From a virus: DNA of 64,000 bases. Location: positions 79,838 to 143,837 of IMG/VR virus record IMGVR_UViG_3300045988_125079; one strand, 5' to 3'. Shown here in pieces: positions 12,316 to 47,418 of the stretch. Position 1 is the stretch's first letter. The number at the start of each line of letters is the position of its first letter. The notes beneath the pieces are model-generated. The model made no database searches. It was not told the DNA's origin and saw nothing but the letters and a program-made list of their open reading frames with translations. A program made the translations under genes and the position numbers.

Positions 12316-14859
12316 TTGTTTAGTCCACCATTATATAGCGTACTAAAATTTAACTTGAATTATATCGTTTCTCATAACTATAATTTTAAACTGACACCAG
12401 AAGAGATGGAGCAGTATAAAGTCTTGCAGGGTGACGATATGCTGTTCAGACAGATTCGGCTCATTTCCGACGACTAGAATAAATTCCAGCGCTTTATTAT
12501 CTTTGTTGATGCAACAGGCGGCCAAAACCACCCTGATGCTATCGATCATTTAGTAGAGCATGGATTCAAATTTAATGGTCAAAAATATCTGTTCTGTGAA
12601 CGTAGTGCAAGTATGGTTCGTCAGAGTATGTTGAGTTTTGTTGAGCGACATATCTACCCTGAACTCGATCGCCGTGTAAGCATGGAACTGGATTTTTCTG
12701 AGACACCAACTGTCCTGAGCAAGTATTATGCATATCGTGGTTTGATGCTGAGCAGCTGCCACTGTCTGGAGAACTGGTATCCCAAAATGATTGTTGTTCC
12801 AGATTATATGACAACGATCAAGAATCAGTGGATCGAGTACCTGGTAGACAAAACTGTGACGTTTAATGACCGCAAAACAGGCAAAGAACGTACCTGGACC
12901 CAGAAAGATATCGCCACAAAAACAGTTGACATTGATATCAACGCCTTTGATGGTGCTGGAATATGCCACCCAAGTATCATGCGCGAATTTGAAAAGCGTA
13001 TCGGTACTTCTGAACGGATGAATAGCTTGATTCTACGTGCTCCATATATCAAGGGTTGCTTACACGAGATTGATTACGAGCGTTTTTTTGAAGAGAACGG
13101 CGTTACAAAAATCAAGGATATCTGGGGTATGGAATATGATGTAACACCTGGCAGTGAACCAATGATTATTATTACTGCTTCAATGTACAAGGGTCTCAAA
13201 TATTTCAAGAAAACTGGTACCTATTCTGACTGGGAGAGATACTGGGAACTCTTCAAGAAGTACGATAACTGCCTTGGTGTAGCCAAATGGAACTTTACGC
13301 TTGAACAAGAACCGCTTTCCACCCGTAGCAACTATCAGGTTATTCAAGACCTACAGCTTGACAATGAGTCTTTTAAGCATCTAGCCGACGACAGCATTAC
13401 CTGGTATCAGAATATTGTCAAAGGCGACCCGATTTATACATACTGCTTCCTTGGTTTACTTGCCGAGAACAATGACCCGATGAATCATTACATGGCTGCT
13501 GCCCTGCGTAATCCAGTGATGGTAAAAGAGCCGGCAATCAAAGATTATATTCACTCGCTGCTTGATAAATATCGCAATGAGATGAAGTGCGGTCGGCTTT
13601 GGATGAATGCTACTTTTAAGTTCTGGGCTCCTGACCTTATCGCACTATTGCAGCATATTGGTGGCCTTCCTGTGACTGGCTGCCTTGAAGACGGTGAGTT
13701 CTACAGTTTCGATCGTCGTGGTGTGATGGAAGGAGACCGCTTAATTGAGCGCAATCCCCATATCTCTGTTGCTGAGCATGTAAAGGCCAAGGCCGTAGAC
13801 AACGAATACACCCATAAATACTGCAGCCATCTTCAGAATGTTGCTATGGTGAATATCAAATCCATCGTGGCTTCCAGACTTAATGGTTCAGATTTTGACG
13901 GCGACCTGGTTTTAATCATCGACAATCCGCTGATGATGAGTGGTGTTCCTGATAATATCCCCATTACACTTGATGTTGAAGATAAGATCACTGCGTTAGC
14001 AGAATGTGATATTGTGAAGAACAAAGTTGCTTGCACCATTCGTGGATTGAAAAGTTCTATTGGTGAGATCTCAAACTACGCAACTGCATACCATAATAAG
14101 GTTCCGACCATGGAAAAGACCAAAAAGCTCTATCACGATAATATTTCGCTTTTGAGTATCTGCAACGGAAAAGCTATCGATTATGCCAAAACCGGTGTTC
14201 TGTATCCGATCCCGCGTAATGTAGCAGCTTATGGTCGTCCTCTACCCTACTTTATGAAGTATGCAGGTCCTTACTACGCACGTTTACATAATCTCAGCAA
14301 GGCACATAGCAACATGAACCTGCTTTGCATGAGTCTGGAGCGTTGGGAGCGCGGTGTACGGTGGCGCAAAGAGCCGGCAGGCAGCTTTGATTGGCATATC
14401 ATGTACGACCCAGAGGTCTCCTATGACCAGGCAGTCTTTGATGAGATCGAAGCCATTTTCTTGGATTTCAACAAATGCCGCAAGGAACAGCTTGAGTTCG
14501 AAAAGAAATGCCGCAACTGGCAATTATATCATAAGGACATCGAGTCGCGTATTACCAAAGAAGAAGCCAAGACATATGAAACGAACTGGCAGGCGATCTA
14601 CAATGTCTACCGTAACAAGTGCAAGCTGGTGTGTCCTGATGTGAGAGAGCTGGCGAATATTCTTGTAGTGCTTTGCTATGAGAAGTATCCAAATAAATTT
14701 AAGAAGTTCTTGTGGCACATGGCCGGCGCTGGTGTGGTCGAAAATATCAAGCCGGTTCTTGTTCAGTTACCAGTTCACGACCCGAACGGTGAGTATGAAT
14801 ATCTTGGCCAGCGATATAGTTTGGCTGAACCGAAAACTTATGAAGCGAGGGTGAAATAA
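12316..14859 (+). CDS. YonO/RdRP-like single-subunit two-barrel RNA polymerase (847 aa, in-frame TAG at 12475)
   Basis: TTG start 9 nt after GAGGAG, in frame through the TAG with track ORF 12613..14859. GSDFDGD (13891-13905) is the DxDGD metal-binding signature. ERNPHISVAEHV and ERSASMVRQS resemble cellular-RdRP/YonO family blocks. Confidence 0.7.
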
Positions 14860-33407: not shown

Positions 33408-36400
33408 ATGGCGCGTGAACCAGAGTTAAGCATTAAAGTCAAAGTAGATCCACAAATTAACCCATCAAGCTTAAAAACGAATATTGAGCGTCAGGTAAAA
33501 CAAAGTGGTGAAAAGCCAAAGGTTGAGATTGATCCTAATGTTGATGGTATTAAGGGTAAAATTGAAGAAAAGCTTAAGAATGTCAAAGCGACTGCAACTG
33601 TAACGCCGATTGTTGACACTGAAAAAATTAAAACAGACATTCAGCGACAGATTAACAGCATTAGCGATATGCCAAAGGTTACAGTTGGTGTCGATGTTAA
33701 TAATTTTTCAAATGAGTTAAGTAAGCAGCTAAAGACACAACTGAAAGAAGTCAATCAGCAACTAAGTTATTATTTGAAGAATCTGACAAGAAATACAAGT
33801 AACCTTGGATCTTTTGCAGAAAATATTTTTAGCATTAAAGGAGTCGCGCCTGCAGCACAAAAGGCTGTGAAAAATGCCGTTGATGAGGCTACTCGAGCAG
33901 CCAAAACATCAAAAAAAGAATTTAATATTAACGATTTGTTTAATTTCAAAATTTCAGACAACACAAAAAAGAAAAGCTTATCTGAAATTGAAGACTTGAC
34001 AATGAACGTTACAGAAGGACTGGACGAATTAAGAAAGAGCGTAGAATCCTGGGATCAAAAAAAAATATCAACAAAAGAGTTCAATGATGGTCTTACAAAA
34101 TTAAAATCTAATGCTTTAGAATTAAAAAGTATAATTTCGTCTTTTAACACCGCGCTTAATTCAGATAATTCAGGCGTAAAAACATTTTTGGATTTGCTAA
34201 AACAAAATGGCTTTGATTTAGCAACGAATACTGGTTCTTTTCAGAACCTCGAATCTCTTCTTGAATTATTAACAAACTTCGATGAGAATTTCAAAACTCC
34301 AACTGAAGCATTTAAATTTGTAGATTCTTTAGACGAAGAAGCGAAACACTATGACAAGGATTTACGAAGGCTATGTCAAAATGCTATTTCCGAATTCGGA
34401 GATATCCAGGATAAATCTGCTGAAACAATCAATAATATCAAAGCAATAAATATTGAAACAAAAAAAGCGCAGCAAGAATTAAAAGTGAATAAAGCAGATG
34501 ATAAATCTGGTTATCTTGATGCTTCTACGATTGAAGCTTATGGCAATGCAATTGACAGAGTTCTTGGCAATATTGCTCAAAAGCAAGAAGACATCAATGC
34601 AAAACGACAAGAAGCCATCAATCTTGAAAAAAATATCCTCTCTAATACTGTCTCAACTCGCGAAGGTCTTAGTCATGAACTTGAAGAATACACTAAAGTT
34701 CTAAATAAATTTGATACTGAAAAAATCACTAAACTTGCAGCGAGTCTAAAAGATACAAGAGTAGAGGCCGAACAATCTGTCCCAAAAGAATTAGTCCAGC
34801 CCGTGGCGCAGCCTTCCAAAAAAGAACCCCCCAAATTTGCCGGAGGTGGCATTCCAGATTTTAATGAGGGATTAAAGAATAACAAAAAAACTGAAGAAAC
34901 CGTTATTCCCATTAAGGGTAAAGTAACAATCACAGATGCTGATATCACAGTAGATGTAAAAAATCCTGTCAAGATTCCTAGTGTTGCAGTTATTGATTCA
35001 AGCGCCGCACAGATTGGTAATACAGATGATTTAAAGGTAAGCGCAGATGCTCTCGCTTCGGCTAATAAGAGCTTGAACGGTATTGCTAGTAAGACGGATA
35101 AATACGTTTCTAATATTTCTGCTCTTGGTCCTGCATTTCAGTATGTAGCGCAGGAAGTCGATAATCTCAGCCATTCTTTAGAGAACCAGATTATTGACTT
35201 CGATCGAATTTCTGAGCAGACAAACGCTTATATTGGCAAAGCTGGTTCTATTCTAATTAATACTTCCAATGTTGCGATTACTGGTGAACCGACAACTATT
35301 GATGGTAAAGTTATTCTTACCGCTAACGACATTGTACCACCCGAAGAACCTGTTGATATCAAGGGACATGTTGAGCTAAAGGTTTCCGATATCACTCCCC
35401 CGTCTGAACCTGTTGAGCTTCAGGGCAAGATTGCAAAGACGACTATGGAGTCTACGGCAAAAGGTAAAAAGAAAAAGGGACAGGATGTTGAAAAACCTGA
35501 TGTTGTCGAATTAGCTGGTCATGTTAAGCTTGAGGACAAAGATATTGAGCGACCTGATCCCGTCAAGCTCAATGGTGCCGTTAAAATCAAAGACAGTGAC
35601 ATCAAGGTTGGCGATATTGAAATTTCTAAAAAGAAGTTTGATATTAATGGCAATTTAATTCTGAAGAATGCTGAGATTGTCGATGCGGTTAAAGAAGCGG
35701 CTGGTGAAGCAGCAAAAGCCAAAAAGAAAAACAAAACTACAGAGAATAGTGGTGGAGGATCAGAAGAAAAATCACTTGATTTTGATCGTAAAGCGAAAGA
35801 GGCTCATCTTGGCTGGCTTATTTCCAATATTGGAGAAAATAGAACATATTTACAGAGTGCAATTTCAAATAAAGATTCAAACAAGAGATCTTGGTATGCA
35901 GGAAAAATTGCAGACTATGAAAAGGATTTTGAAGAAACAACAAGAGAACTTATCGAAAATCTTACGGAAGAAGAGCAGGATTGGATCGAGTCCTTAAAGG
36001 GTAAAAAAATAAACCTCAATGATCCAAAACAAATCGATGAACTCATGGCAGATAAAACAATCTTGTGGCCATGGGAAGAAAGCGGCTCTTATTTAAACGG
36101 TACATTAAAAGCTGCCAATATGGCAGGATTTTATAATGTTTCTGAAACTGATAAAGCTAAAAAGAGAAATAGCTATGAAAAAGAATATGTCGAGTTAATA
36201 AAACAAAAACCGGCATTGATTAAAGCTGCCGCAGAAGCAAGAAAACAATATGGCGAAGACAGTGACGCCTATAAGGATGCTGTAAGGGCAAAAAAAGAAA
36301 ATGAAGAAGCTTTACGTGCTATTAATCCTGATAGACAAAAATCTAATGTTCCAAGAGGAATTGTTGATGGTGGCTATTCAAACTCCCCCGCTGTCCAAAG

Positions 36401-38495
36401 CACATTGGCTGACATTCATAAACAGGTGCAAAAACGGCGTTCAGAGCTACTGTTGCAAAAAACAAAAGATTCTAAAGATGTTAATGATAAACAAACTCAA
36501 CAAGCAAAAAAGATTTTATCTGATGCATTTATTGAACAGGTAAGAGCTTATGCTGATGGTTTAAAAGAATCTTCAAAGTACAACGATGATGACGTTTCTG
36601 AATCTGCAAAAACTGCCCGCAAACAGATGCAGGATGCTTTTGATTCTGCCAATGATAAATTTTTAGAATTGCTTGATGTTTTTTCTGGAGACGAAATCGA
36701 TCAGCTTACATTAAAAGCAAAGAAGGAACTTGATTCTGCTAATAGAATTGTAGATCGCCGAATTGCAAATCTCACTGATAACAATAATAAACAAAATTTA
36801 TCTGTTGAAGATCGTCAGAAAGCATTAGATCAAATTCGAGCTGCGATTGAAAAGAATTCAAACAATATGGACCGCGCCAGGAAGAATGGTTCAGCCGGTA
36901 GTGATCTCTATAGTCAATTCAATGCCAAACAGACCATGTACAAAGCACTAGAAGGTGCAGTATCTTCTGGATCTGGCATTAAAGATTGGGCGAAGACATA
37001 TTTTCCTGCTAAAGTTGACGATATCAATAATGTTACCGATGCTCTGAGGGAAATGCGCGGCGAGTTAACAGAAGACCAAATCAAATTAGCACAAGTATCG
37101 GCTGATAAGTCAATTGAACGTTCTACTAACAAAGCAGCTACTGCGGTTGCAAATTTAAAATCTCAAATTCATGACTATCTTGAAACGAACAAGAAAATTC
37201 AAAATAGTGAGCTGGCTCAGCCTTTTAGAGATCTAATGAATGCATTAAATTCTAAAAATGCTCCAGAAAAAATCGGAGAATTACAGAAACAATTTGCTGA
37301 GCTTCGTGCGAGATCTAAAGAACTTGGACTTGAAACCGAAAGTTTGATTGATAAGTTCGAGAAACTCTTCGGAACGCACTTGAGTACAATGATCACCATG
37401 GCAGCGTTACACAAGATGCAAGACGCCCTACGCTTGGTGTATCAGAACGTGGTCGAGATTGATACGGCAGTAACCGAGCTGAGAAAAGTTAGTGAATATA
37501 CAGGCAAATCTCTCGAAGAATATATGGGACGTGCGGCTGAACAGGCTCAAAAGCTAGGTGTCTCTATCAGTGATTATGTCAATTCTACAGCCGATTAGAA
37601 GCGGCTTGGTTATTCTGATGAAGACGCCGAGAATTTAGCAACCTACTCTACCTTGCTCAAAAACGTTGGCGATAATATCGATGACGTTAACACCTCGTCT
37701 TCGTATTTGATTTCTACTCTGCAAGGTTTTGGGCTGTTAGCCGATCAAGCAGAAGATGTCGTTAATAAAATTGACGCTGTGGCAAACACGCAGCCTGTTA
37801 CTGCAAAAGACCTTGGCGAAATCTTGACTCGCAGTTCTGCTGCTATGTCGGCCGCTAATAATACGCTGGAAGAAACTATCGCGCTTGGTACTGCTGCAAA
37901 TGCAGTTATCCAAGATGCAGATACGGTCGGTACAACTTTAAAAAGTTTATCAATGTATCTCCGTGCTGCTAAAAGTGACGCAGAGAATGCAGGTATTGAA
38001 GTTGACGGTATGGCCAATTCTGTGTCTGAGCTCCGCAGTGAACTGAAATCTCTGACTGGCGTTGACATCATGCTGGATAGCAAAAATTTCAAGAGTACAT
38101 ATCAAATCATGAAAGAGCTGTCTCAAGTATGGAGTGGTCTGTCCGATGTAACGCAAGCAAATGTCACTGAAATGATTGGCGGGAAGAGAAACGCAAATGC
38201 AGTTAGTGCTATTCTAAACAATTTTGACGTTGCTGAATCTGCTATGGAATCCGCTGCTAACAGCGCCAACGTGGCATGGGAAGAGAACGAGAAGTATCTC
38301 GACAGTATCCAAGGCCGCCTTGCGCAACTCAATGCAAGCTTCCAAGTCCTTTCTCAAGATGTCCTCTCTTCCGGTCTCGTGAAGAGTGGAGTATCTTTCC
38401 TCACATCAATTGTTAAACTTCTTGATAAAATCATTAATCTCACTGGTGCCCTTCCTGCTGGACTGGGTATCGCAGCATTTGCAACTCAGCTGGGT
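33408..38495 (+). CDS. tape measure protein, exon 1 (1696 codons, in-frame TAG at 37596)
   Basis: AAGGAGGA SD. Long coiled-coil protein with the conserved tape-measure core (...KLGVSISDYVNSTAD-TAG-KRLGYSDEDAE...). Coding quality collapses after ...AFATQLG at 38495. Confidence 0.75.
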
Positions 38496-38782
38496 GAACC
38501 CAAAATGACGGGTTTCATGATTGTGCCCAGCAATACTCCGGGTGGTGACACGGAACAAGTGCTCCGCAGGTATTATATTATATATTCGCGAAGCATGAGG
38601 GAGTATTTAGTAAAACCGACGAACATGGTGACATAGCCACGGCGAGTTTGGGTAATTCTCGTCCGGGAACCGAAAGGAATCCGCAGGCAAGCTCTGTATA
38701 CGCCTACATTATTATAATAGGCGCTGCTAGAGACGCTTCAGAGAGCATAATGTCGGGGTGGATCTTTTATGTGTTGCTTCCA

Positions 38783-38808
38783 CGATTTTGTTGACGTCAA
38801 CAAAATCG
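38783..38808. repeat. perfect 26-bp palindrome CGATTTTGTTGAC/GTCAACAAAATCG
   Basis: Read directly. It lies 112 nt upstream of the island promoter. It could be an intron hairpin (P8-like) or an operator. Confidence 0.8.
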
Positions 38809-38919
38809 CTCGTAACAATACTATAGGTTCACTATGGGGTGCTCCAAATCAGCTGTCGCAAGATAGCAAAAATTACAGGCGGTCTCTCCCCTGCTGTCAA
38901 AAGTGGAGAAATATTTTTG

Positions 38920-38948
38920 TTGACTATCTTAGTATTTCTGGCTATAAT
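38920..38948 (+). promoter_or_regulatory. consensus sigma70 promoter (TTGACT-17-TATAAT)
   Basis: Exact hexamers with a 17-nt spacer, 55 nt upstream of the ATG at 39003. Confidence 0.75.
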
Positions 38949-39002
38949 AAAAATATCAAAAACAATACACAAGCAAAACGTATGTAGTGGAGGTATTTTA
39001 TT

Positions 39003-39335
39003 ATGGCACGTCCTAAAGGAAGCAAGAATAAAGCAAAGGTTCTCGATGGCGTCGATTATGCAGCACAGATCGCTGAGAAAAATACTGCCGCAGAATCTCT
39101 TGCTGAAGAAATTGCAGCACTTGGCACGAATATTGCCGCGCTGAATGCTGAGAGAAAATCCAAAGAAGCAGAACTGAAAAAGCTCAACAAAGAAGTTACG
39201 AAGCTTGAAAAGAAAAAAGCTGAGGCCGATGAAAAGATTGCAGAAGCTGCGAAGAAAGCTGAAGCTGAAGACGTGCTCAAGAAACTACTGTCCAGTGGTA
39301 TGAGCGCAGATGAGATTTTGGAAAAGCTGAAATAA
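39003..39335 (+). CDS. Lys/Ala/Glu-rich coiled-coil protein with AT-hook-like N-terminus (110 aa)
   Basis: GGAGG SD. MARPKGSKNK start. TAA stop followed by a terminator. Confidence 0.65.
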   Translation: MARPKGSKNKAKVLDGVDYAAQIAEKNTAAESLAEEIAALGTNIAALNAERKSKEAELKKLNKEVTKLEKKKAEADEKIAEAAKKAEAEDVLKKLLSSGMSADEILEKLK

Positions 39336-39353
39336 GGTATCATCATAAAACAA

Positions 39354-39392
39354 GCCCGACTTCCCTACTGCTGGGAGGCCGGGCGTTTTAAT
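39354..39392 (+). terminator. rho-independent terminator
   Basis: 12-bp stem GCCCGACUUCCC/GGGAGGCCGGGC followed by UUUUAAUUU. Confidence 0.65.
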
Positions 39393-39449
39393 TTATGGTT
39401 GATTTTGGTAGCAAGCTATGATACACTCTCACAAAAGGAGTGTTGAATC

Positions 39450-39605
39450 ATGGAAAATAAAAACAAGGCAAGCGTAAAGCAGCCTACTAATAATCCAAAT
39501 CACGGACAAATTAGACATGATGGGCATTTTAGCTATCAGCCAGCACCAGAGAAGCCCAAATCTCCAAATACTGTTAAAACAAAATTCAATCCTAAAAAGA
39601 GGTGA
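39450..39605 (+). CDS. small Pro/Lys/Asn-rich protein (51 aa)
   Basis: AAAGGAG SD. TGA stop 4 nt before the next start. Confidence 0.4.
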   Translation: MENKNKASVKQPTNNPNHGQIRHDGHFSYQPAPEKPKSPNTVKTKFNPKKR

Positions 39606-39609
39606 TAAA

Positions 39610-40173
39610 ATGAATCCAAAAGATTTAATCTCTATTCTTCCGGATTTTTTATCTTATTTTATTCCCGGTGCGACATGTCTTATCATTTACAATTTTTTGT
39701 TTTTAAAGAAATCAGATCATGACAAATTCTTGTTTTGGTCTATTATAATCAGCTATACTTCAAAAATTTTCATTGATACTTTTATCCATAGCCGATTCAA
39801 TTTATTTCTTCATGCTATCTTTTGTATTTTTGCTCCAATTCTATTATTTAGTATCAAAAGAGTCGGTATTAGCGATTGGTTTGATAAAATCACCGGCTTA
39901 TCTAGCGAAGAAAACATTTGGTTAAAAACTATTGACTGGGGTAACGATAATTATATTGCTCTTCATCTTTCGGACAATTCCATATATACAGGTATCATTT
40001 ATTCCGTTGATTGTGACTGGATTATCTTGAAATCTTACGATGACGACAAAGGGAGTAATTCCAGTGATGAAGTCGATTATAAAATTCTTTGTATCCCGAT
40101 TTCTAAGGTTGAGCGATTCGAAATGTCGTATATTGACAATGACAAAATGAAGAAAAAATTCTATCCTGAATAA
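39610..40173 (+). CDS. membrane protein (187 aa, about 3 N-terminal TM helices)
   Basis: ATG at 39610 after AAGAGGTG. Hydrophobic N-terminal half. Confidence 0.6.
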   Translation: MNPKDLISILPDFLSYFIPGATCLIIYNFLFLKKSDHDKFLFWSIIISYTSKIFIDTFIHSRFNLFLHAIFCIFAPILLFSIKRVGISDWFDKITGLSSEENIWLKTIDWGNDNYIALHLSDNSIYTGIIYSVDCDWIILKSYDDDKGSNSSDEVDYKILCIPISKVERFEMSYIDNDKMKKKFYPE

Positions 40174-40182
40174 TAATTTCAA

Positions 40183-40220
40183 GTCCGTATGAGCATTATG
40201 CTTGTGCGGGCTTTTATTTC
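40183..40220. terminator. hairpin terminator between convergent island operons
   Basis: 13-bp stem (with G-U pairs) at 40183-40211, followed by UUUUAUUU on the plus strand. Confidence 0.55.
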
Positions 40221-40235
40221 TATATTACTACGCAG

Positions 40236-40580
40236 CTAATCCTTGATTTCATTATCAAGACGTTTGATATAATCTGCTTCCAGCTGGTCGAAGTTTAAAT
40301 TATAGCGAGTTTCCAAGTAGTTCAGCACAGAGTCCAGTGCACTTCCTATGAAATATTTGTTTGCACCAAATTCATATCTCAGGCTCCCAATCGTTTCTGG
40401 CATGATTGGATATCCATCTCTTCCGTCAAACAGGTCGTTATTACAAGCGGGATTTCTGTAAGCAACAGGATAATGATAAAACCCGCCCTTGCCGTAGTTA
40501 TTGGACTTGTTATATGTCCACTCAGCAGCAAAGTCCTCAAGTATCGCTATAAGTTCTGCACGTTCTTGTGACATACTCAT
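40236..40580 (-). CDS. hypothetical protein (114 aa), terminates at TAG
   Basis: GGAG SD. The stop codon is TAG, and the terminator hairpin follows immediately. Confidence 0.6.
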   Translation of the reverse strand: MSMSQERAELIAILEDFAAEWTYNKSNNYGKGGFYHYPVAYRNPACNNDLFDGRDGYPIMPETIGSLRYEFGANKYFIGSALDSVLNYLETRYNLNFDQLEADYIKRLDNEIKD

Positions 40581-40689
40581 AATTGATTTCTCCGTAAAGA
40601 ATTAGAAATTCGAATTACAGTTTTTGCAATGCCATTGTTTTCCGATTTTCCCGCTGGCAGCGCCCACGAGAGATACAGACACTGTGCGG

Positions 40690-41598
40690 CTATGGACGTT
40701 CTAGTTTTGCATCGATCGTTTTCTTCTGTGTGCAATAATCCAATACGTATTTCAAATCATCTCGAACTTTTTTAGTCGCATCGTCGCCGTGCCAACCCGT
40801 ATCGAGATATTGTTCGTAGAAGTATTGAATTATTTCCGTTTCGGTATGTTTCCCTGTGTCAATAAAATCTCGGAGGATTCGCTGTCTTTGTGTTGCTGAC
40901 TTTGTTGTTGTGTACCCATCTTTATTTATAGTTGTTTGTTGGGCAAAGTCGTCAAAGATTTCGTTCTGATCTTCATAATAACTCGCCCACAATGCAAGTT
41001 CTCTACCATGCTTAGACATAGATGAGTCAAACTCAGTCGATAAATAATATTGATAACTGCCACCTTTTGCAGCAAAAATTTCTTTTGTTACAAAATATTT
41101 GTCGCATTTATCACAGTGAATAACATCAACAGTGGTTGGATCGGTGAAAGCCTCGTATTCCGGTTTAGGTTTAATTCTAGCTCTATACGCCGTGCAATGG
41201 TGCTTCTGTCTGAAACATTTATTTGATTTAAAATAAAATATAACTGTGTGGAGTTTATCATCAGTCCAGTCGATATCTTGAGGTATCTGATACTGGGCTG
41301 CCAATGCTTGATCTACCTGTTTTGTTTCAAGGATAGTGTATTTTAAAGTCCGTCCGTCTTTCTCGATCTGAAAGGAATCTGCTCCTGTCGCAGCTGCTTT
41401 CATAGCCGCATCAAACAAATTCTTCATCTTTTCATCGCCACGCAAAACAAACACGGGATATTCATAGCATCCAGGCTCTGGCAAAACACTAAATTCGTAA
41501 TCCGACAAAATTATCTTATAAATTTCAGGATCGTCTACATTCTCATCCTCTGAAAAGTAGGCATATAATATCGCATAGACTGGATTATATGCTTCCAT
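40690..41598 (-). CDS. hypothetical protein (302 aa), terminates at TAG (25 more codons if TAG is read as sense, ending at 40615)
   Basis: Long ORF with GAGGAAAA SD. The stop codon is TAG. Confidence 0.6.
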   Translation of the reverse strand: MEAYNPVYAILYAYFSEDENVDDPEIYKIILSDYEFSVLPEPGCYEYPVFVLRGDEKMKNLFDAAMKAAATGADSFQIEKDGRTLKYTILETKQVDQALAAQYQIPQDIDWTDDKLHTVIFYFKSNKCFRQKHHCTAYRARIKPKPEYEAFTDPTTVDVIHCDKCDKYFVTKEIFAAKGGSYQYYLSTEFDSSMSKHGRELALWASYYEDQNEIFDDFAQQTTINKDGYTTTKSATQRQRILRDFIDTGKHTETEIIQYFYEQYLDTGWHGDDATKKVRDDLKYVLDYCTQKKTIDAKLERP

Positions 41599-41613
41599 GA
41601 TTTTTCCTCGATA

Positions 41614-42246
41614 TCAAAAGTTACTATTACAATTCTTACAGTGCCATTGTTTACCTAACTTCGGAGACGCGATACCGAATGCGTAAATTGATATACCACG
41701 GCTTACTCCAGAGATCTTCTCGGTATTTGCGGACTTACAGTAGGGGCAGACGACACGCTTGCCGTTGGCGAGGTCTTGCTGCTCTTGACGTGCGGCCTGT
41801 TGCGCCTCGGCTTCGTGTTGCTCGTGAAGATGAGCCATTTGTTGACGATGAGCTTCTTTGTTCTGTCTACGGATTGCTTCTTCTACACACAAAATCCCCG
41901 GATGATCTTTCTCTCGAAGTTGGTCATAGTAGAATTGAAGAAACTCTGAATTATTTCTTTTATAATGGATTTTATTGTCTCCAAATAATTTTCTATTGCT
42001 TGTTTTAATTTGTTTGTAGCGTCCTCTCAACTCTTTATGATCTTTTAAAATACAATCAGTTAAATATGCCCTTGTAACATTTTCATAATACTCTTCTAAT
42101 GTTTTTGTATCAGGGTCTTCTTTTAGATATTCATAGTCCGGGTATATTTTAAGAATTCTTTTTGCCTCATTCCACCAAGATAGCCTTTGAAAGTACCCTT
42201 CTGGTTTTGGAAATGGTATATCTTTTTTTATGATTCCTATTTTCAT
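41614..42246 (-). CDS. hypothetical protein with C-terminal zinc ribbon (210 aa)
   Basis: GAGAGGA SD. CPYCKS...WHCKNCNSNF. First gene downstream of the minus-strand island promoter. Confidence 0.6.
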   Translation of the reverse strand: MKIGIIKKDIPFPKPEGYFQRLSWWNEAKRILKIYPDYEYLKEDPDTKTLEEYYENVTRAYLTDCILKDHKELRGRYKQIKTSNRKLFGDNKIHYKRNNSEFLQFYYDQLREKDHPGILCVEEAIRRQNKEAHRQQMAHLHEQHEAEAQQAARQEQQDLANGKRVVCPYCKSANTEKISGVSRGISIYAFGIASPKLGKQWHCKNCNSNF

Positions 42247-42293
42247 AGCATCCTCTCAATCGTGACAAATAATCTTAACCGACCATTTTGATT

Positions 42294-42322
42294 ATTATAC
42301 GATATGACAGTCAATAAGTCAA
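42294..42322 (-). promoter_or_regulatory. consensus sigma70 promoter (TTGACT-17-TATAAT) reading leftward into the island
   Basis: On the minus strand, TTGACT is at 42322-42317 and TATAAT at 42299-42294. The -35 hexamer lies inside tape-measure exon 2. Confidence 0.7.
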
Positions 42323-45300
42323 TGATTGAGCTTGGAAATAGCCTTGACGGAACAATCAAAAATGCTGTTGACTCTGTAAAAAAATTAGAAGGCATTCCAA
42401 AGGCATACCAGAAATTCATGGTATCTGGAGATTTTGTCTGGGGAAATGGGCAAAAAGTTGATATATCTTCTTATGGAAATAGTTCAAAGGAACTTAACAA
42501 TTATATTGCTCAAGTTTCCACATTAAACAAAGAGCAACAAAAAGTCGTTTTCTCTATGACAAATTTCAGTGATGGGCAAAAAGAAATTATCACTAATACA
42601 TTGAATGAAATTTCAACAGGGGAAAAACTAAACGGCATCATCGCAGAGCAGGTGTTAAGAGAAAAAGGATTTGGCGAAGCTGCCGTAAAAGGATTGACTT
42701 CTATTTACAAACTAAGTGACGGAGCTGGAAATTATGGAGTTGCTCTCACTTCCAAAGTTATTCCTGCAATGGAAGGATGGATTAACAAGCATACAGAATT
42801 AATTGATGCGAATGAATTATTAAAAAACAACATCATTACTGGAACTGCGGGGAACTATAAATTTTCTGATTCTTTTATTCAACTTATTTCCAATGAACAA
42901 AATGCCGTTGTTGTAACCAAAGCACTTACCGCAACTCAAAAAGCGTGGAATATTGCAACACAATTTAGTAAACAACTTCTCCTCTCTCTTGGCGTAGCCG
43001 CTGTTGCCTTTATTGCAACCAAAATTGTCGATTATCTGATGAACCTAAAAACTCGTTCTGAAGAACTTGTTGATGCAATGAATGATTCTCACGATGCTGC
43101 ACAGCAAGCAACTAAGGATGTTGAAGAGATCCAGTCTAAAATTGACGAGCTGAACAAATCTCTGAAGGACGCGGGCGTTAAAAAGATTGAAGACATCGTT
43201 GATCCTGCCGAGCGCGAGCGTCTGCAAGCCATCAACGATATGTTGCAGGCTCAACTCGAACTCAAGAAGCAGCTGGAGAAGGATGCGAACGATAAAGCAA
43301 ATGCCGACACAAGTGCTGTTGTGAATGATAAGACAGAAGACAGTATTGTGAAATCCCGCACAGTAAATGTTTCTTATGCCGAGGGTGGTGCAAATGCTGG
43401 CACTCATCAGGTTGCAGAGAAAGTCTCTAAGACTGAATCTCTTGAAGAGCACGCTGCTGCACTTAACGACCTAATCGATAAACGGCGCGAACTAGCTACT
43501 GCTGGCAAAGAAGATACTCAAGAGTACAAAGACAATGAGGCTGCAATCGTGTCCGAAACCGAGAAGGTTGAAGAGCTCTCCTCTGCTGTGTCTGAGCAAA
43601 TGGACGGTTATGAGACAAATGCCGACAGTTTCGCTAGGTACAAAGATGAGTATGTTACAGGCACGAATGCAATGACTGCAGCCACTAAAGCTCTGGCGAA
43701 TGCACAAGATAATACAGGCATTGATACTACCAATCTTGATATATTCTCAGAAAAAGTAAAACAAATCAAGAATGATATCGACAATGGTGATTCTCAGCAA
43801 AGCGATTGGAAAACATTCAATGGGCTTGACGCATTTAGTGGAATGACTGGCGAGGCAATAATCAACATCGATAAAGACTCTTCTCATCAAACCGAGACCG
43901 AAACAGCTGCGCTTGAAAAACTCCATAAAACTGCAGACGAGAATAAAATATCATTTGAGTCTCTAATTGGTGTGTTTGAAAGTTTCGGTCTTGTGCAAAT
44001 TAGTAACTCTGCAACTGCTGACGATTACGCCGATAAACTCGAAAAAACAATGGGCGTCATCGACAATATTCAATCAGCATACAAAGCCTGTTCTAGTGCT
44101 GTTGAAGAATATAACCAGTATGGATACATGAGCGTTGACTCGTTGCAAGCTCTTTTGCAAATGGATGACCAGTATCTTAATACTCTTGAACTTGTTAATG
44201 GAAAGCTCCAAGTCAATCAAAGTGCGTATGCAGATTTATTGGCAACTCAATACGCAGAAGCTCAAACGGAAGCTATTTCTCAGGCGATATCAGAACTAAA
44301 TGCGATTGCAAAGGGAGACGCCGCAGAAAAAGCCGAGACATTTACTGAAGCAACTGAAGATGAAAAGAATAAGCTTACTGCTTTATGCCCCGCTTTGAAA
44401 GATGCTACTGTTGGAACAGGCGAACTTGCTGCCGCATTAGCCGCTGCACAGGGAGCAGCCAACGGGGAAGACGCTGACGCTATTCAAGCTAAAATTGACG
44501 GTGTTATGAACGCATTAAACACCAGATTAAAGCTTATTGGAAATAATATGTCTGCCGCAATGAATGGCGCTGCCGGTTTACGCAATCAGCTCGATGGCTT
44601 TAGCAATTCTTCGAACAAGGCTGCGGATTCTTCGAGAAAGGCAGCGGATTCTTCTAAAACACTTCTTGACGCATGGTCTACCCTTACCTCTGCGATGAAA
44701 GAATACAACGAGCAAGGTTATATCACTTTCCAAACCCTGAAGAGTTTGACCGACCTTGAAGATAAGTATTCTTCTATGCTCAAAAAGAATGACGTTACTG
44801 GTCAGCTTGAAATACGCACAGATGACTTTTATAAGTTAATGAAAGCCGAGCTGAAAGAAGCGCAGATAAAAGGTGACGGTGCAAGTGAAGCACAGTACAA
44901 TAAGATTCTTGAGTGGACAAACCGTAACATCAAAAATCAGATCATGTCCTACTGGGATCTGGTCGCTGCAATTGAAGGTTACACTGCTGCTCTCTCAGGT
45001 GCTAAAGAAATCACTGACACATTCAAAGATGCATGGGATAATGGCAAAACTGTCAAGGAAAAGCAAGAAAAGAGTCGTGCCGGCGCACTTGATTATGAAG
45101 GTACTGAAGCACAATCCTCTGCTCTGCAAGCCCTGATGAAGTACAGCGAATATGACCCTGAATTGATTGGCAAGGCGTTCAATAAGGAAACTGGCAAAAT
45201 TGATTTGAGCGGAGACATGCTGAAAACCGCCGTTACAGAATCGCTAAAGCAGCAGGCTGCCGCAGCTCGTACTGAAGGTGGAGCAGCTGCTGAAGCTATT

Positions 45301-47418
45301 GCTGCAAGCTATGAGAAGTCTGCCGAGAATATTGAGAATGACGTCATTTCCGTACAGGATTATTTTGACGGTCTTGGCTCTACGATCGAAGAAGCCAACT
45401 CGAAGATTGATGAGCTGCAGAGCGCGTACACAGATCTCGAAGATACTGCCAGCGAATATAATACTTATGGCGGCTTAAGCGTTGATAGTTTGCAAAAGTT
45501 GCTTACAATGTCTCCTGAGTATCTTGCATGTCTCGAAATGAATGGCGATCAACTTGTTTTCAACCGTGACAAAATGCAAGAACTTTTGATTCTCCAGCTT
45601 GAGAGTAGAAAAGAATTCTTGACATCTAAGAAAGAAACAGAAGATCAGGCTCAGATTATCCAGGCCATTATAGATTCTATTCGAACTAATGGTGTCAATG
45701 CTATTAAAGGAATGGGCACAGAAGCCGGACGAGTAAAATCAATCCTTTCAGATATGAAAGACATCTTCTCTTCCTTTCTTGATCTGATTGAAAGTGCAAA
45801 CTCGAAAAAGGATAACGACCTCAAACTTTGGGGCGAGGCCATGACCGAGGATATAGATAAGCGAATCGATGCCCTAAACAAGCAGAAAGAAGCTCTTCAA
45901 GAAGCCAATGACGAAGAGGAACGCGCGATTACCCTGGCTAAGCTAAAGGCCGAACTTGAAAAGGCTCGCACTCAGCGTACTGTTCGCAAGTTGACCAGCA
46001 ATGGCTATGAGTGGGTTGCTGACGAATCCGCAGTCAAGGAAGCTCAGGATAATCTGAATGACCAACAACGTGAGTGGCGCAAGGAAGATGCCGAGAAAGC
46101 TATTGATGACCAGATTGATAAACTGAACGAACTGAAAGATAAGTATAGCGAGATTATCGGTCTAATTGGAACTGACTGGGATGACTATAATAAAAAGCTG
46201 AAATATGCATCCGAAATCGCCGATATGACTTTCACAGAAATGGAAGGTCGTGTCGATGTTTTTAAGGGCAATGTTTTAGCTTCTATGCAAGCCGCCAATC
46301 CAATTTCTACTATTAAGAAGATTATTAGTGGACTTGAGTCTCTAATTAGTACGCTTGAAAAAGTCGGAAATGTCTTAGATAAGCTGGATGGCGGTAGTGG
46401 CAACGGCGGAATTACCACTTTATGGAATAAAATCACCAACTTGTTTAATGGAAAGAACACGAACAATACGCAGACCGCTTTTGGTAATTTCTGGAATAGC
46501 CTTAGTCAGGTTGGCAGAAATGGCGTAAATAAACTTCAAGAAGTAATTTTTGGTGGTTGGAATAAAATAACATCAGGAACCAGTGGTTTTCTTTCTAATG
46601 TAGGAAACTTCTTTGGTGGAGCGTAGAATAAAATTTCAACTTCGACCAGTTTACTGTTTGGCGATATTGGATCATTCTTTTCTCAGGGTTTTAGTTCATT
46701 AGTTGGGCTTGCACAAAACGGATTAGGAAGCGTTGTATCTGTTGTTGGTAGCCTCTTTACTCCGATTGCAAATGGAGCTATGTCTATTGGCAGTGCAATA
46801 AGCTCTGGCATTGTATCGTTCTTCCCTTCGATTTTTATGGCGCTTGGAACATTGGTTTCTACTGTTGGTGCTGCAATGAGTGGCATGTTAATGCAAATTG
46901 CTACCGCATTAGCTTCAATCCCGGTTGTAGGATGGATAGCAGCAGCAGTTGCAGTTGCAGGCGCTGTTGCTCTAATTGCGTCCATCGCTGCTACTGCATC
47001 AAAGACTAGTAAAACAACAGTAGATCAACCGAAGCCTTCATTCAAAGCAAAAAAATATGCGAAGGGCTCAAAAACAATTGATAAGGATCAGTTGGCTAAT
47101 GTCGATGAACAAGGTTCTGAGCTTGTTGTTCGTCAACCAGAATCTGGTCGTTATACATATTTAGAAACTGGTGATGGTGTTGTTCCGGCAGACATAACAT
47201 CTCGGTTGTTTGAAATGGGAGGAAATCCCGACGAATGGTTCAATAAACAACTCGCAAAGCACGTTGCGTTAAGTAATGTTCAGAATCATACCGTTGGAGG
47301 AGCAGTCTCTGTTGGAGATATTTATATTCAAAATCCTGTTGGAAATACAAATGAACTCGCAAAAGAGATTGTTTTAAAACTGCCAAATGCCTTGCTGCAA
47401 TATCAAAGCAAGCGATGA
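42307..47418 (+). CDS. tape measure protein, exon 2 (1703 aa, in-frame TAG at 46624)
   Basis: No SD precedes the ATG at 42304. Coiled-coil rich. Track ORFs 42304..46626 and 46780..47418 are joined in frame by the TAG. Gly/Ala-rich hydrophobic segment and a typical tape-measure C-terminus. Confidence 0.75.

What the first reader, a model, noticed from the sequence alone, without database searches (positions are those of the whole stretch)
38496..42306. The tape-measure gene is split by a 3.8-kb group I intron-like element carrying a multi-gene cargo
Coding quality of the tape measure stops at ...AFATQLG (38495) and resumes at 42307 (TVNKSMIELG...). The ATG at 42304 has no SD, unlike nearly every other gene here.

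The boundaries fit group I splicing rules:
- The 5' exon CUGGGU pairs with GCCCAG (38525-38530), with a U-G wobble at the splice site.
- The six nt immediately 5' of that guide (GAUUGU, 38519-38524) pair with the first six nt of the 3' exon (ACAGUC).
- Nt 42306 is G.
- Both junctions fall on codon boundaries, giving one 3,399-aa ORF.

Core-like elements follow the guide. AAUCCGCAGG (38678-38687) is Q-like. CUUCAGAGAGCAUAAUGUCGGGG (38736-38758) resembles the Tetrahymena R/P7-P3 segment. A hairpin at 42259-42303 abuts the terminal G.

The architecture would resemble introns whose ORF sits in a 3' peripheral loop. Here the insert is about 3.4 kb with six ORFs on both strands and no recognisable homing endonuclease.

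Two caveats. A second CUGGGU at 38463-38468 is an alternative in-frame 5' site. Two intrinsic terminators inside the element would have to be read through.
Basis: partly seen in the sequence, partly recalled or inferred. Interest (0 to 1): 0.9.

Follow-up and report, generated by a model that had tools for sequence, protein, structure and literature searches.

The report
Cargo-laden group I intron in tape-measure gene
The tail tape-measure gene of this SPbeta-like gut phage is interrupted by a 3.8-kb self-splicing (group I) intron that standard RNA models miss and that carries several unrelated genes on both strands instead of the usual homing endonuclease.

Summary
Window 38496-42306 is an intervening sequence between two halves of a tape-measure gene (33408-38495 and 42307-46626).

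Its first ~420 nt are a structured RNA with a group I layout. They are almost invariant in 64 related phage contigs whose flanking exons have diverged.

Three findings decide the case:
- The guide sequence covaries with both exons. A lineage with the same core in a tape-measure gene only 30% identical has changed P1 and P10 compensatorily.
- The last intron base is G in 27 of 27 elements.
- Exon 2 has no start codon of its own in most relatives.

Two other intron types at the same site in related phages match Rfam's group I model. This one does not, even at E ≤ 10.

No homing endonuclease or transposase was found. In the 25 window-type elements the constant cargo is a 110-aa coiled-coil gene plus an antisense ~210-aa zinc-ribbon gene. 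The antisense gene's promoter straddles the 3' splice site. The rest of the cargo varies between elements.

Corrections: the joined ORF is 3,135 codons, not 3,399, and this copy has a TGG-to-TAG change at 37596.

Group I introns in tape-measure genes are already known, so this is a new variant. Splicing itself is inferred, not shown.

The parts
33408..38495 (+). Exon 1: N-terminal 1,696 codons of the tape-measure protein. Contains an in-frame TAG at 37596-98.
   Evidence: ORFs. Pfam PhageMin_Tail and PHROG tape-measure hits end at the junction. TAG versus TGG in 41 relatives.
38489..38531 (+). P1: 5' exon GCUGGGU (38489-95) paired with the internal guide GCCCAGC (38525-31), with U38495.G38525 at the 5' splice site. 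Encloses hairpin P1a (38496-501 with 38510-15).
   Evidence: 7 of 7 pairs in 27 of 27 elements. Two pairs are compensatory in L023 and L028.
38518..38524 (+). P10 guide strand UGAUUGU, pairing with the first 6-7 nt of exon 2 (42307-13).
   Evidence: 5-7 bp in all 27 elements. L028 has UAAUUGC with GCAAUUA and L023 has GAUUGC with GCAAUU.
38496..38912 (+). Ribozyme core.
- P2: 38532-39 with 38600-07
- P2.1: 38542-51
- P2.2: 38559-96
- P3: 38616-21 with 38751-56
- Extra hairpin P3.1: 38628-40
- Extra hairpin P3.2: 38641-63
- P4: 38664-67 with 38680-83, with AA/AA internal loop
- P5: 38670-77, GAAA loop
- P6: 38687-88 with 38735-36
- P6a: 38691-95 with 38729-34
- P6b: 38701-23
- P7: 38741, 38743-47 with 38840-45, bulged A38742
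- P8: 38758-64 with 38826-32
- P9: 38852-67, GCAA loop
- P9.1: 38876-79 with 38890-93
- Pseudoknot: 38885-89 with 38905-09
   Evidence: Conservation block. RNAalifold and minimum-free-energy folds recover most helices. P3 and P7 are invariant.
38920..38948 (+). Sigma-70-type promoter TTGACT-17-TATAAT for the first cargo gene.
   Evidence: 11 of 12 match. Kept in relative L001.
39003..39335 (+). Cargo gene: 110-aa coiled-coil protein.
   Evidence: Present in 25 of 25 window-type elements. The same cassette, 84% nt identity, sits in a different (class B) intron in L076. Only coiled-coil noise in Pfam, NCBIfam and PADLOC.
39354..39394 (+). Intrinsic terminator: 12-position stem with one A.C mismatch, GC-rich, followed by a T-run. 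Lies inside the intron in the sense orientation.
   Evidence: Read from the sequence. The simple scan did not list it.
39450..40173 (+). Cargo: 51-aa ORF (39450-39605) and a hydrophobic 187-aa ORF (39610-40173; 218 aa if started at 39517).
   Evidence: ORFs. The family is in 6 of 25 elements. No family hits.
40181..40213 (.). Terminator-like hairpin between the convergent cargo units.
40236..40580 (-). Cargo gene, 114 aa, unknown function.
   Evidence: Family in 17 of 25 elements. No family hits.
40602..40694 (-). Out-of-frame remnant of a second copy of the zinc-ribbon C-terminal segment (..SRTVSVSLVGAASGKIGKQWHCKNCNSNF).
   Evidence: Translation. Short blastn match.
40690..41598 (-). Cargo gene, 302 aa, unknown function.
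   Evidence: Family in 6 of 25 elements. No family hits.
41614..42246 (-). Antisense cargo gene: 210-aa helical protein with a C-terminal zinc ribbon. The only cargo type found in every element examined.
   Evidence: - Present in 25 of 25 window-type elements, and also in L028 and L023.
- 118 unnamed clusters.
- Third codon positions 47% identical against 81-88% for first and second positions.
- AF2 pLDDT 86, with no PDB fold match.
42268..42296 (+). 3'-terminal hairpin: AAUAAUC paired with GAUUAUU, loop containing the conserved GACCA.
   Evidence: Stem sequences differ but pairing is kept across 18 variants.
42294..42322 (-). Promoter of the antisense gene. The -10 TATAAT (42299-294) is in the intron and the -35 TTGACT (42322-317) is in exon 2.
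   Evidence: 11 of 12 match. Both hexamers coincide with nt-conserved strings in relatives.
42306..42306 (+). Terminal G (omega-G). The 3' splice site is 42306|42307.
   Evidence: G in 27 of 27 elements.
42307..46626 (+). Exon 2: C-terminal 1,439 codons of the tape-measure protein.
   Evidence: - ORF.
- tblastn alignments in relatives start exactly at codon 1.
- The first ~18 nt are conserved while the protein is only 26-50% identical.

Best explanation
Window 38496-42306 is a group I intron in phase 0 of the tape-measure gene of an SPbeta-like siphophage.

Ribozyme and splicing (inferred):
- The ribozyme, P1 to P9.1, lies entirely in the first ~420 nt.
- All cargo sits between the core and a short 3' tail. 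The tail is a hairpin followed by 10 nt ending in G.
- The late transcript runs through the whole element.
- The core folds and an external guanosine bound in P7 attacks after U38495, which is the U.G pair in P1.
- P10 (38518-24 with 42307-13) and G42306 then place the 3' splice site.
- The exons join to encode one 3,135-residue tape-measure protein.

Cargo:
- The cargo is expressed separately from host-type promoters.
- A sense unit encodes the 110-aa coiled-coil protein and ends at a strong terminator.
- A convergent antisense unit starts at a promoter split across the 3' splice site.
- Its first gene, a zinc-ribbon protein, is the only cargo type present in every element.
- The remaining cargo is variable accessory genes.

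Shown versus inferred:
- Shown: the boundaries, the RNA structure, guide-exon covariation, the lack of an independent start for exon 2, selection on the antisense ORF, and the absence of any known endonuclease or transposase.
- Inferred: actual splicing; read-through of the internal terminators, possibly by the phage's YonO-like RNA polymerase; and what the cargo does.
For: 1. Conservation contrast. The core is ~98% identical to MT837120 while the adjoining exon is ~70% identical. The same holds across 52 distinct cores from 64 IMG/VR contigs.
2. Pair counts. 92% of cells pair, against 37-46% when partners are slid. 31 pairs change on both sides (0 of 500 shuffles reach this). Compensatory pairs occur in P1, P2, P2.1, P3.1, P3.2, P5, P6, P6a, P8 and the pseudoknot.
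3. Guide adaptation. L028 and L023 carry the same core in a tape-measure gene only 30% identical. There, exon GGCGGGU pairs with guide GCCCGCC, (U)AAUUGC pairs with GCAAUU(A), the terminal G is kept, and the joined frame is open.
4. 3' junction. All 27 elements end in G. The codon before exon 2 is ATG only in the window type. Elsewhere it is TTG, TCG, ACG, AAG or TAG.
5. No intron-less relative. None of the listed hits to a 400-aa junction peptide (best 120 of 302, ranked by score) spans both halves.
6. Same site, other introns. Classes B and C of relatives have RF00028 matches at the same tape-measure site (41.5 bits, E 2.8e-7; 26.9 bits, E 0.0065).
7. Core motifs resemble textbook group I, from my own knowledge of the Tetrahymena sequence. 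These are P7 with a bulged A followed by G-C and A-U, J6/7 UUCA, J7/3 UAA, P3 3' strand UGUCGG, CCGCAG-GC-AA-GCUCU matching CGCAG-CC-AA-GUCCU, and A-rich J4/5 and J5/4.
8. Distant tape-measure proteins are continuous across the equivalent point.
9. Precedent. Group I introns with site-adapted guides occur in tape-measure genes of B. cereus-group prophages (PMC2504315).
Against: - Rfam's RF00028 gives no match to this element or to L028, even at E <= 10 on 461 nt.
- Two hairpins (P3.1, P3.2) sit between J3/4 and P4. I know of no described subgroup with that feature.
- P3 and P7 never vary, so covariation neither supports nor contradicts them.
- A strong sense-strand terminator (39354-94) and a second one (40181-213) lie inside the intron.
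- Convergent antisense transcription would oppose the pre-mRNA.
- No homing endonuclease explains how the element spread.
- This copy of exon 1 has a TAG at 37596, so this genome may not make a full tape-measure protein at all.
- No RNA data were available.
Confidence: 0.85

Rival explanations
1. Two independent tape-measure genes are separated by an accessory-gene island. The conserved 420-nt RNA is some other non-coding RNA, or a dead intron, and the two halves are never joined.
For: - RF00028 is negative.
- The window's exon 2 happens to begin after an ATG.
- Internal terminators would favour separate transcripts (and the sequence).
- Every relative's gene call stops near the junction.
Against: - Most relatives have no start codon, or have a stop codon, immediately before exon 2, and no ribosome-binding site.
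- P1 and P10 track exon sequence in a different tape-measure gene. That has no purpose without splicing.
- The terminal G is invariant.
- The joined frame is open in L028.
Confidence: 0.05
2. It is a real group I intron, but the internal terminators usually stop the full-length pre-mRNA. Exon joining would then be rare and regulatory, or would occur in trans between a 5' transcript (exon 1 plus core) and a separately initiated 3' transcript (hairpin plus exon 2).
For: - The whole catalytic core lies 5' of the cargo, and only ~40-60 nt are needed at the 3' end.
- A strong terminator lies 850 nt into the intron.
- P10 plus a conserved loop (GACCA) could serve for docking.
Against: - No convincing sense promoter lies upstream of the 3' tail. 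The best is 9 of 12 at 42207-34.
- No long pairing between the core's 3' end and the tail was found.
- The phage encodes a YonO-type polymerase. The SPbeta enzyme transcribes the late operon as one unit and pauses little.
Confidence: 0.07
3. It is a decayed IStron: a group I intron fused to an IS605/IS607-type transposon that has lost tnpA and tnpB and picked up other genes. Its spread would then be by past DNA transposition.
For: - It has the same layout as IStrons. The intron core is at the left end, genes sit in the 3' region, and the 3' splice site is at the far right end (bioRxiv 10.1101/2023.11.20.567912).
- The 5' flank ..TGGGT resembles the TGGG adjacent motif reported there for the C. 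botulinum IStron.
- The hosts are clostridial.
Against: - No transposase, TnpB or recombinase domain in any cargo ORF of the window or of the sister-element ORFs that were scanned.
- IStron introns match the Rfam model. This one does not.
- All copies found sit at one homologous site in tape-measure genes, not at scattered sites.
Confidence: 0.05
4. It is a DNA-level intervening element that is cut out by site-specific recombination to restore the gene, as with the skin element of sigK.
For: A large insert with its own genes splits an essential late gene.
Against: - No recombinase in the element.
- No shared core repeat at the two junctions.
- The RNA-level covariation of P1 and P10 is unexplained by this model.
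Confidence: 0.02

Closest known systems
Group I introns in tape-measure genes of Bacillus cereus-group prophages (TMP-IVS1/2/3; Tourasse and Kolsto 2008, PMC2504315)
   Same: - Same host gene type.
- Self-splicing group I RNA in a phage tail gene.
- Guide and P10 adapted to different insertion sites.
- Different introns occupy the same site.
- Some copies lack a complete endonuclease gene.
   Different: - Those are IA1 or IA2 introns found by standard models. This core is missed by RF00028 and has two extra hairpins between P3 and P4.
- Here the insert is 1.3-5.2 kb with several unrelated genes on both strands.
IStrons (CdISt1, CboIStron: group I intron plus IS605/IS607 genes)
   Same: - The ribozyme core is at the 5' end.
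- Protein genes lie in the 3' region.
- The 3' splice site is kilobases away at the element's right end.
- Clostridial setting.
   Different: - No tnpA, tnpB or guide-RNA scaffold was detected.
- Copies are restricted to one homologous site.
- The cargo is variable accessory genes with their own promoters, partly antisense.
Phage T4 nrdD (sunY) intron and other phage introns with an ORF downstream of the core (own knowledge)
   Same: - The open reading frame is placed 3' of P9.
- The 3' splice site is found through P10, a short 3' structure and the terminal G.
- The intron gene has its own promoter.
   Different: - T4 introns carry one sense-strand homing endonuclease gene.
- Here there are five or six genes, none a recognisable endonuclease, and the one constant gene is antisense.
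Phage 'morons' and accessory-gene hotspots
   Same: - Cargo units have a host-type promoter and terminator.
- Content is variable between close relatives. A PemK/MazF toxin and a retropepsin-like protein occur in sister elements.
   Different: The hotspot is inside an intron inside an essential structural gene, rather than between genes.

Membership tests
Group I intron | 5' splice site after a U that forms a U.G wobble in P1 with an internal guide sequence | tested here: met
   U38495.G38525. P1 is 7 bp. The wobble is present in 52 of 52 cores.
Group I intron | The guide sequence tracks the exon sequence (P1 and P10 covariation) | tested here: met
   L028 and L023 have two compensatory pairs in P1 and compensatory changes in P10, in a different exon context.
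Group I intron | Terminal G at the 3' splice site | tested here: met
   G in 27 of 27 elements with both junctions.
Group I intron | P3-P8 / P7 pseudoknotted core with a guanosine-binding P7 (bulged nucleotide followed by G-C) | tested here: inconclusive
   The sequence fits: P7 is G-C, bulged A, G-C, A-U, G-C, C-G, A-U, and P3 is CCGACG with UGUCGG. Both helices are invariant in all 52 sequences, so there is no covariation. P8 covaries.
Group I intron | P4-P6 domain with A-rich J4/5 and J5/4 | tested here: met
   P4 is CGGG with UCCG, flanked by AA/AA. P5, P6, P6a and P6b have compensatory changes. Unusual: hairpins P3.1 and P3.2 precede P4.
Group I intron | Match to the curated covariance model RF00028 (a diagnostic, not a defining property) | tested here: not met
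   No hit at gathering score or at E <= 10. L028 is also negative. Sister introns at the same site are positive.
Group I intron | Guanosine-dependent self-splicing | not testable with these tools
   Needs an in vitro assay or RNA-seq.
Mobile group I intron with homing endonuclease | Encodes a LAGLIDADG, GIY-YIG, HNH, His-Cys box, PD-(D/E)XK or similar endonuclease | tested here: not met
   No such domain in any cargo ORF. The constant antisense protein has no PDB fold match.
IStron | Group I intron joined to IS605/IS607 tnpA and/or tnpB with transposon ends | tested here: not met
   No transposase, TnpB or recombinase hits. Transposon ends were not tested.
Tail tape-measure protein (host gene) | PhageMin_Tail / TP901-type tape-measure domain in a very long ORF downstream of tail genes | tested here: met
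   PF10145 E 2e-19 and phrog_4211 E 6e-49. Homologues are annotated as tape measure in SPbeta-like, Enterocloster and Bacillus phages.

The most novel reading that the evidence does not exclude
This would be a previously undescribed branch of group I introns, invisible to RF00028 and with extra P3.1 and P3.2 hairpins. It has become a fixed, endonuclease-free platform for exchangeable accessory genes inside an essential phage gene.

Its one constant protein, an antisense zinc-ribbon protein transcribed from a promoter split across the 3' splice site, would be a new kind of intron-associated factor acting in mobility, maintenance or control of splicing.

The choice between host RNA polymerase and the phage's YonO-type polymerase would decide between cargo expression and tape-measure production. 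Host polymerase expresses cargo and stops at the internal terminators. The phage polymerase reads through, allowing splicing.
Probability: 0.3. Interest if true: 0.75.

Novelty: new variant of a known kind. Interest (0 to 1): 0.6.

Why it matters
- **Annotation.** The intron explains why tape-measure genes of a large group of gut SPbeta-like phages are annotated as fragments. At least 64 IMG/VR genomes of 85-150 kb are affected. Standard intron models miss the cause.
- **Intron biology.** A group I intron can persist and appear in tape-measure genes only 30% identical without any recognisable homing endonuclease. It can also serve as a landing pad for variable accessory genes, including a MazF-type toxin in sister copies.
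- **Testable questions.** Does a YonO-type polymerase ignore intrinsic terminators? What does the ever-present antisense zinc-ribbon protein do?

Tried and rejected
- **Rfam.** Searched at gathering score on the whole window, and at E <= 10 on 5.3 kb and on 461 nt. No group I hit, only noise.
- **Stop-codon recoding as the reason for the TAG at 37596.** Rejected. Relatives have TGG there. Other internal TAGs in the window look like ordinary gene ends. No suppressor tRNA was found.
- **The second CUGGGU as the 5' splice site.** Rejected, because it is not conserved.
- **My first P4 idea (GCCACGG with CCGCAGGC).** Rejected, because covariation supports hairpin P3.1 instead.
- **Extreme conservation of the zinc-ribbon C-terminus as an overlapping RNA element.** Rejected, because third codon positions vary freely.
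- **Function of the antisense protein.** Pfam, PHROGs, NCBIfam, PADLOC, an AF2 model with Foldseek against PDB, and a 1.8-billion-protein search showed only a common C-terminal zinc-ribbon module.
- **Host assignment by an 18-mer scan of genomes.** Six of seven hits were chance matches in coding DNA.
- **A partner for the conserved GACCA loop and the UAUAC tail.** No covarying partner was found by eye.
- **A second intron upstream in relatives** (extra DNA near residue 1140). No RF00028 hit.

Full report
**What is there**

The window holds the late region of an SPbeta-like siphophage.
- A 1,396-codon ORF (33408-37598) continues in the same frame after a single TAG to 38636.
- A 1,440-codon ORF runs 42304-46626.
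- The stretch after the TAG carries the Pfam PhageMin_Tail domain (E 2e-19). It matches PHROG tape-measure profiles up to residue 296 of the 299 that end at 38495.
- Between 38496 and 42306 lie six ORFs on both strands.
These are CUGGGU with GCCCAG, GAUUGU with ACAGUC, G at 42306, codon-boundary junctions, no ribosome-binding site before the ATG at 42304, and the second CUGGGU at 38463.

Two corrections are needed.
- The joined frame has 1,696 + 1,439 = 3,135 codons, not 3,399.
- It is broken in this copy by TAG at 37596-98. Homologous proteins have W there, and all 41 related loci have TGG.

**The first 420 nt are a conserved structured RNA**

- In the closest GenBank relative (MT837120, human faeces), the tape-measure coding DNA is about 70% identical to the window. 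From 38484 to about 38915 identity is near 100%, apart from hairpins that differ in a paired way.
- An 18-nt core motif retrieved 64 IMG/VR contigs of 85-150 kb. Their 52 distinct cores show the same sharp conservation block.
- RNAalifold and single-sequence folding recover most of the helices I assign. The single-sequence fold has a z-score of -3.64.

**The fold (window coordinates)**

| Element | Coordinates | Notes |
|---|---|---|
| P1 | 38489-95 with 38525-31 | U.G at the splice site |
| P1a | 38496-501 with 38510-15 | |
| P2 | 38532-39 with 38600-07 | two inner hairpins |
| P3 | 38616-21 with 38751-56 | |
| P3.1 | 38628-40 | extra hairpin |
| P3.2 | 38641-63 | extra hairpin |
| P4 | 38664-67 with 38680-83 | flanked by AA/AA |
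| P5 | 38670-77 | GAAA loop |
| P6 | 38687-88 with 38735-36 | |
| P6a, P6b | 38691-95 with 38729-34; 38701-23 | |
| J6/7 | | GCUUCA |
| P7 | 38741, 38743-47 with 38840-45 | bulged A38742 |
| J7/3 | | UAA |
| P8 | 38758-64 with 38826-32 | |
| P9 | 38852-67 | GCAA loop |
| P9.1 | 38876-79 with 38890-93 | |
| Pseudoknot | 38885-89 with 38905-09 | |

Pair counts on the 52-sequence alignment:
- 92.0% of cells form standard pairs, against 37-46% when partners are slid by 1-3 columns.
- 31 of 93 pairs have changes on both sides, against 17.1 +/- 1.6 in shuffles (0 of 500) and 5-13 in slides.
- P3 and P7 never vary, so they rest on resemblance to textbook group I cores rather than on covariation.

From my own knowledge, that resemblance is close:
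- Tetrahymena has CGCAG-CC-AA-GUCCU where this RNA has CCGCAG-GC-AA-GCUCU.
- Tetrahymena has UUCACAGACUAAAUGUCGG where this RNA has UUCAGAGAGCAUAAUGUCGG.
- Both have the bulged A followed by G-C and A-U in P7.

**Decisive evidence: the guide follows the exons**

Loci L028 (identical core region in L029 and L059) and L023 (identical in L041) carry the same core in tape-measure genes only about 30% identical to the window's.

| | Window type | L028 / L023 |
|---|---|---|
| 5' exon end | GCUGGGU | GGCGGGU |
| Guide | GCCCAGC | GCCCGCC |
| P10 guide strand | GAUUGU | (U)AAUUGC |
| Exon 2 start | ACAGUC or ACAAUC | GCAAUU(A) |

- P1 differs by two doubly compensated pairs, and the U.G is kept.
- The intron still ends in G, and the joined frame is open (..LNKAAG|AIKPTVD..).
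- Across 27 elements with both junctions, P1 is 7 of 7 paired, P10 has 5-7 pairs, and the last intron base is always G.

**Exon 2 is not an independent gene**

- In 27 loci, tblastn alignments to the C-terminal half begin exactly at its first codon.
- The triplet before that codon is ATG only in the window type. Elsewhere it is TTG, TCG, ACG, AAG or the stop TAG, and no ribosome-binding site is present.
- A 400-residue junction peptide searched against 5.8 billion proteins found 302 relatives. In the listed best 120 (ranked by score), down to about 46% identity, none covers both halves. So I found no intron-less allele in this clade.
- More distant tape-measure proteins, such as Enterocloster phage CB473P1 (1,509 aa), are continuous through the equivalent point.

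**Other introns at the same site**

N-terminal halves of relatives end in three conserved tails, which I call classes A, B and C. In representatives of class C (L078) and class B (L076), Rfam's RF00028 matches right at the end of the N-terminal half:
- Class C: 41.5 bits, E 2.8e-7.
- Class B: 26.9 bits, E 0.0065.

Both scores are below the gathering score of 50, but both sit exactly at the expected place. Class A, which includes the window and L028, gives no RF00028 match even at E <= 10 on 461 nt. I read this as divergence from the curated model. The P3.1 and P3.2 insertion and a minimal P5 are likely reasons. It does not outweigh the evidence above.

**The 3' end**

- Upstream of the terminal G is a hairpin whose stem sequence differs among lineages while pairing is kept. 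Examples are AAUAAUC with GAUUAUU, UUUGUAUCA with UGAUACAAG, and AGUGAUUUCGG with CCGAUUUUAUU.
- Its loop always contains GACCA. I found no covarying partner for that loop.
- Part of the conservation here has a second cause. On the minus strand, TTGACT (42322-317, in exon 2), 17 nt, then TATAAT (42299-294, in the intron) is an 11-of-12 promoter pointing into the antisense gene.

**Cargo**

Element length ranges from 1,325 nt (L028) to 5,196 nt.

- **Zinc-ribbon protein, antisense.** This is the only cargo type present in every element. In the window it is 41614-42246, 210 aa.
  - Its C-terminal ~50 residues are almost invariant.
  - Third codon positions are 47% identical against 81-88% for first and second positions. 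It is therefore a protein under selection.
  - The family has 118 clusters, all unnamed.
  - An AF2 model (pLDDT 86) shows a helical bundle plus a zinc ribbon, with no PDB match better than E 0.9.
  - The C-terminal module occurs in about 1,400 protein clusters. In the 150 listed it is nearly always at the C-terminus of small proteins, with varied N-termini.
- **110-aa coiled-coil gene (39003-39335).** It has its own 11-of-12 promoter and a strong terminator.
  - It is in all 25 window-type elements.
  - It also sits, at 84% nt identity, in the unrelated class B intron of L076.
- **Variable genes.** The 114-aa, 302-aa and membrane-protein genes are present in only some elements.
  - Sister elements carry other genes instead. 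One is a PemK/MazF toxin (E 8e-20) and another a retropepsin-like protein (E 1e-5, below cut-off).
- **Recombination scar.** A remnant second copy of the zinc-ribbon 3' end at 40602-40694 brackets the 302-aa gene. This suggests cargo is gained by recombination at that conserved segment.
- **No mobility enzyme.** No endonuclease, transposase or recombinase domain was found.

**How it most likely works**

The steps that are shown and those that are inferred are listed under the best explanation.

The main difficulty is the sense-strand terminators at 39354-94 and 40181-213. The window encodes a YonO-type polymerase at 12613-14859:
- Pfam RdRP, E 2e-13.
- tblastn matches to SPbeta-like phages, including a record annotated yonO.
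- SPbeta YonO transcribes the late operon as one unit, pauses little, and lacks the flap domain that hairpin-dependent pausing and termination rely on (PMC5467207).

Read-through by this enzyme is my inference and was not tested. Host polymerase would then express the cargo from the sigma-70-type promoters and stop at the terminators.

**Comparison with what is known**

- Group I introns in tape-measure genes, with guides adapted to different sites and different introns at one site, were described in B. cereus-group prophages (PMC2504315). The kind is therefore known.
- The layout of core first, genes in the 3' region and a distant 3' splice site matches IStrons and, from my own knowledge, the T4 nrdD intron.
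- What differs:
  - a core missed by RF00028, with two extra hairpins;
  - no endonuclease or transposase;
  - several exchangeable genes on both strands;
  - a constant antisense gene whose promoter spans the splice junction.
- The core has no match in annotated GenBank phages other than the unannotated MT837120, and none in PLSDB plasmids.

**Verdict**

Confidence that this is a splicing group I intron is about 0.85. It is a new variant of a known kind, of moderate to good interest.

Noticed in passing
window 37596-37598: An in-frame TAG lies inside the conserved tape-measure domain (STAD*KRLGY). Homologous proteins have W there, and all 41 related loci have TGG. This is either a genuine amber mutation, meaning a defective phage, or a sequencing error. 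There is no sign of general TAG recoding and no tRNA in the window.
   Followed up: yes
window 12613-14859 (+): A 748-aa homologue of the SPbeta YonO single-chain RNA polymerase (Pfam RdRP, E 2e-13; tblastn to SPbeta-like phages, one record annotated yonO). This marks the phage as SPbeta-like and may explain read-through of the intron-internal terminators.
   Followed up: partly
window 40602-40694 (-): An out-of-frame remnant of a second copy of the zinc-ribbon protein's C-terminal coding segment, directly downstream of the 302-aa ORF. It looks like a scar of cargo insertion by recombination.
   Followed up: partly
window 42294-42322 (-): A near-consensus promoter for the antisense gene is split by the 3' splice site, with -35 in exon 2 and -10 in the intron. 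It therefore exists only in the intron-containing allele.
   Followed up: partly
L076 9812-11342: A different, RF00028-positive intron at the same tape-measure site carries the same 110-aa gene cassette (84% nt identity). In L076 no C-terminal tape-measure half was found downstream. Minus-strand genes lie directly upstream of the tape-measure fragment, with an integrase and a Tn916-type Xis gene at the far end of that block. The locus looks rearranged.
   Followed up: partly
proteins P0056 and P0091: Gene calls fuse the N-terminal part of a tyrosine recombinase to the tape-measure domain. This suggests another mobile element inserted in the upstream part of the gene in some relatives.
   Followed up: no
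L023 about 1490-1745 (also L041): A ~260-nt insertion in the P6a loop of an otherwise intact core. This is the classical place for insertions in phage introns. It contains a terminator-like hairpin.
   Followed up: no
L034 9175-9854; L011 2836-4469: Relatives have about 550-680 nt of extra DNA near residue 1140 of the N-terminal half. Many gene calls for the N-terminal half start just downstream of it. There is no RF00028 hit there and the cause is unknown.
   Followed up: partly
sister elements, e.g. L014 element 1968-2651 and L036 element 774-1286: The cargo of sister introns includes a PemK/MazF-type toxin (Pfam E 8e-20) and a retropepsin-like protein (E 1e-5, below cut-off). The intron is a hotspot for accessory, possibly conflict-related, genes.
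   Followed up: partly
window 42307-43206 versus loci: The first 300 residues of exon 2 are only 26-50% identical between phages whose exon 1 ends are 75-98% identical. The intron therefore sits at a boundary of mosaic exchange in the tape-measure gene.
   Followed up: no
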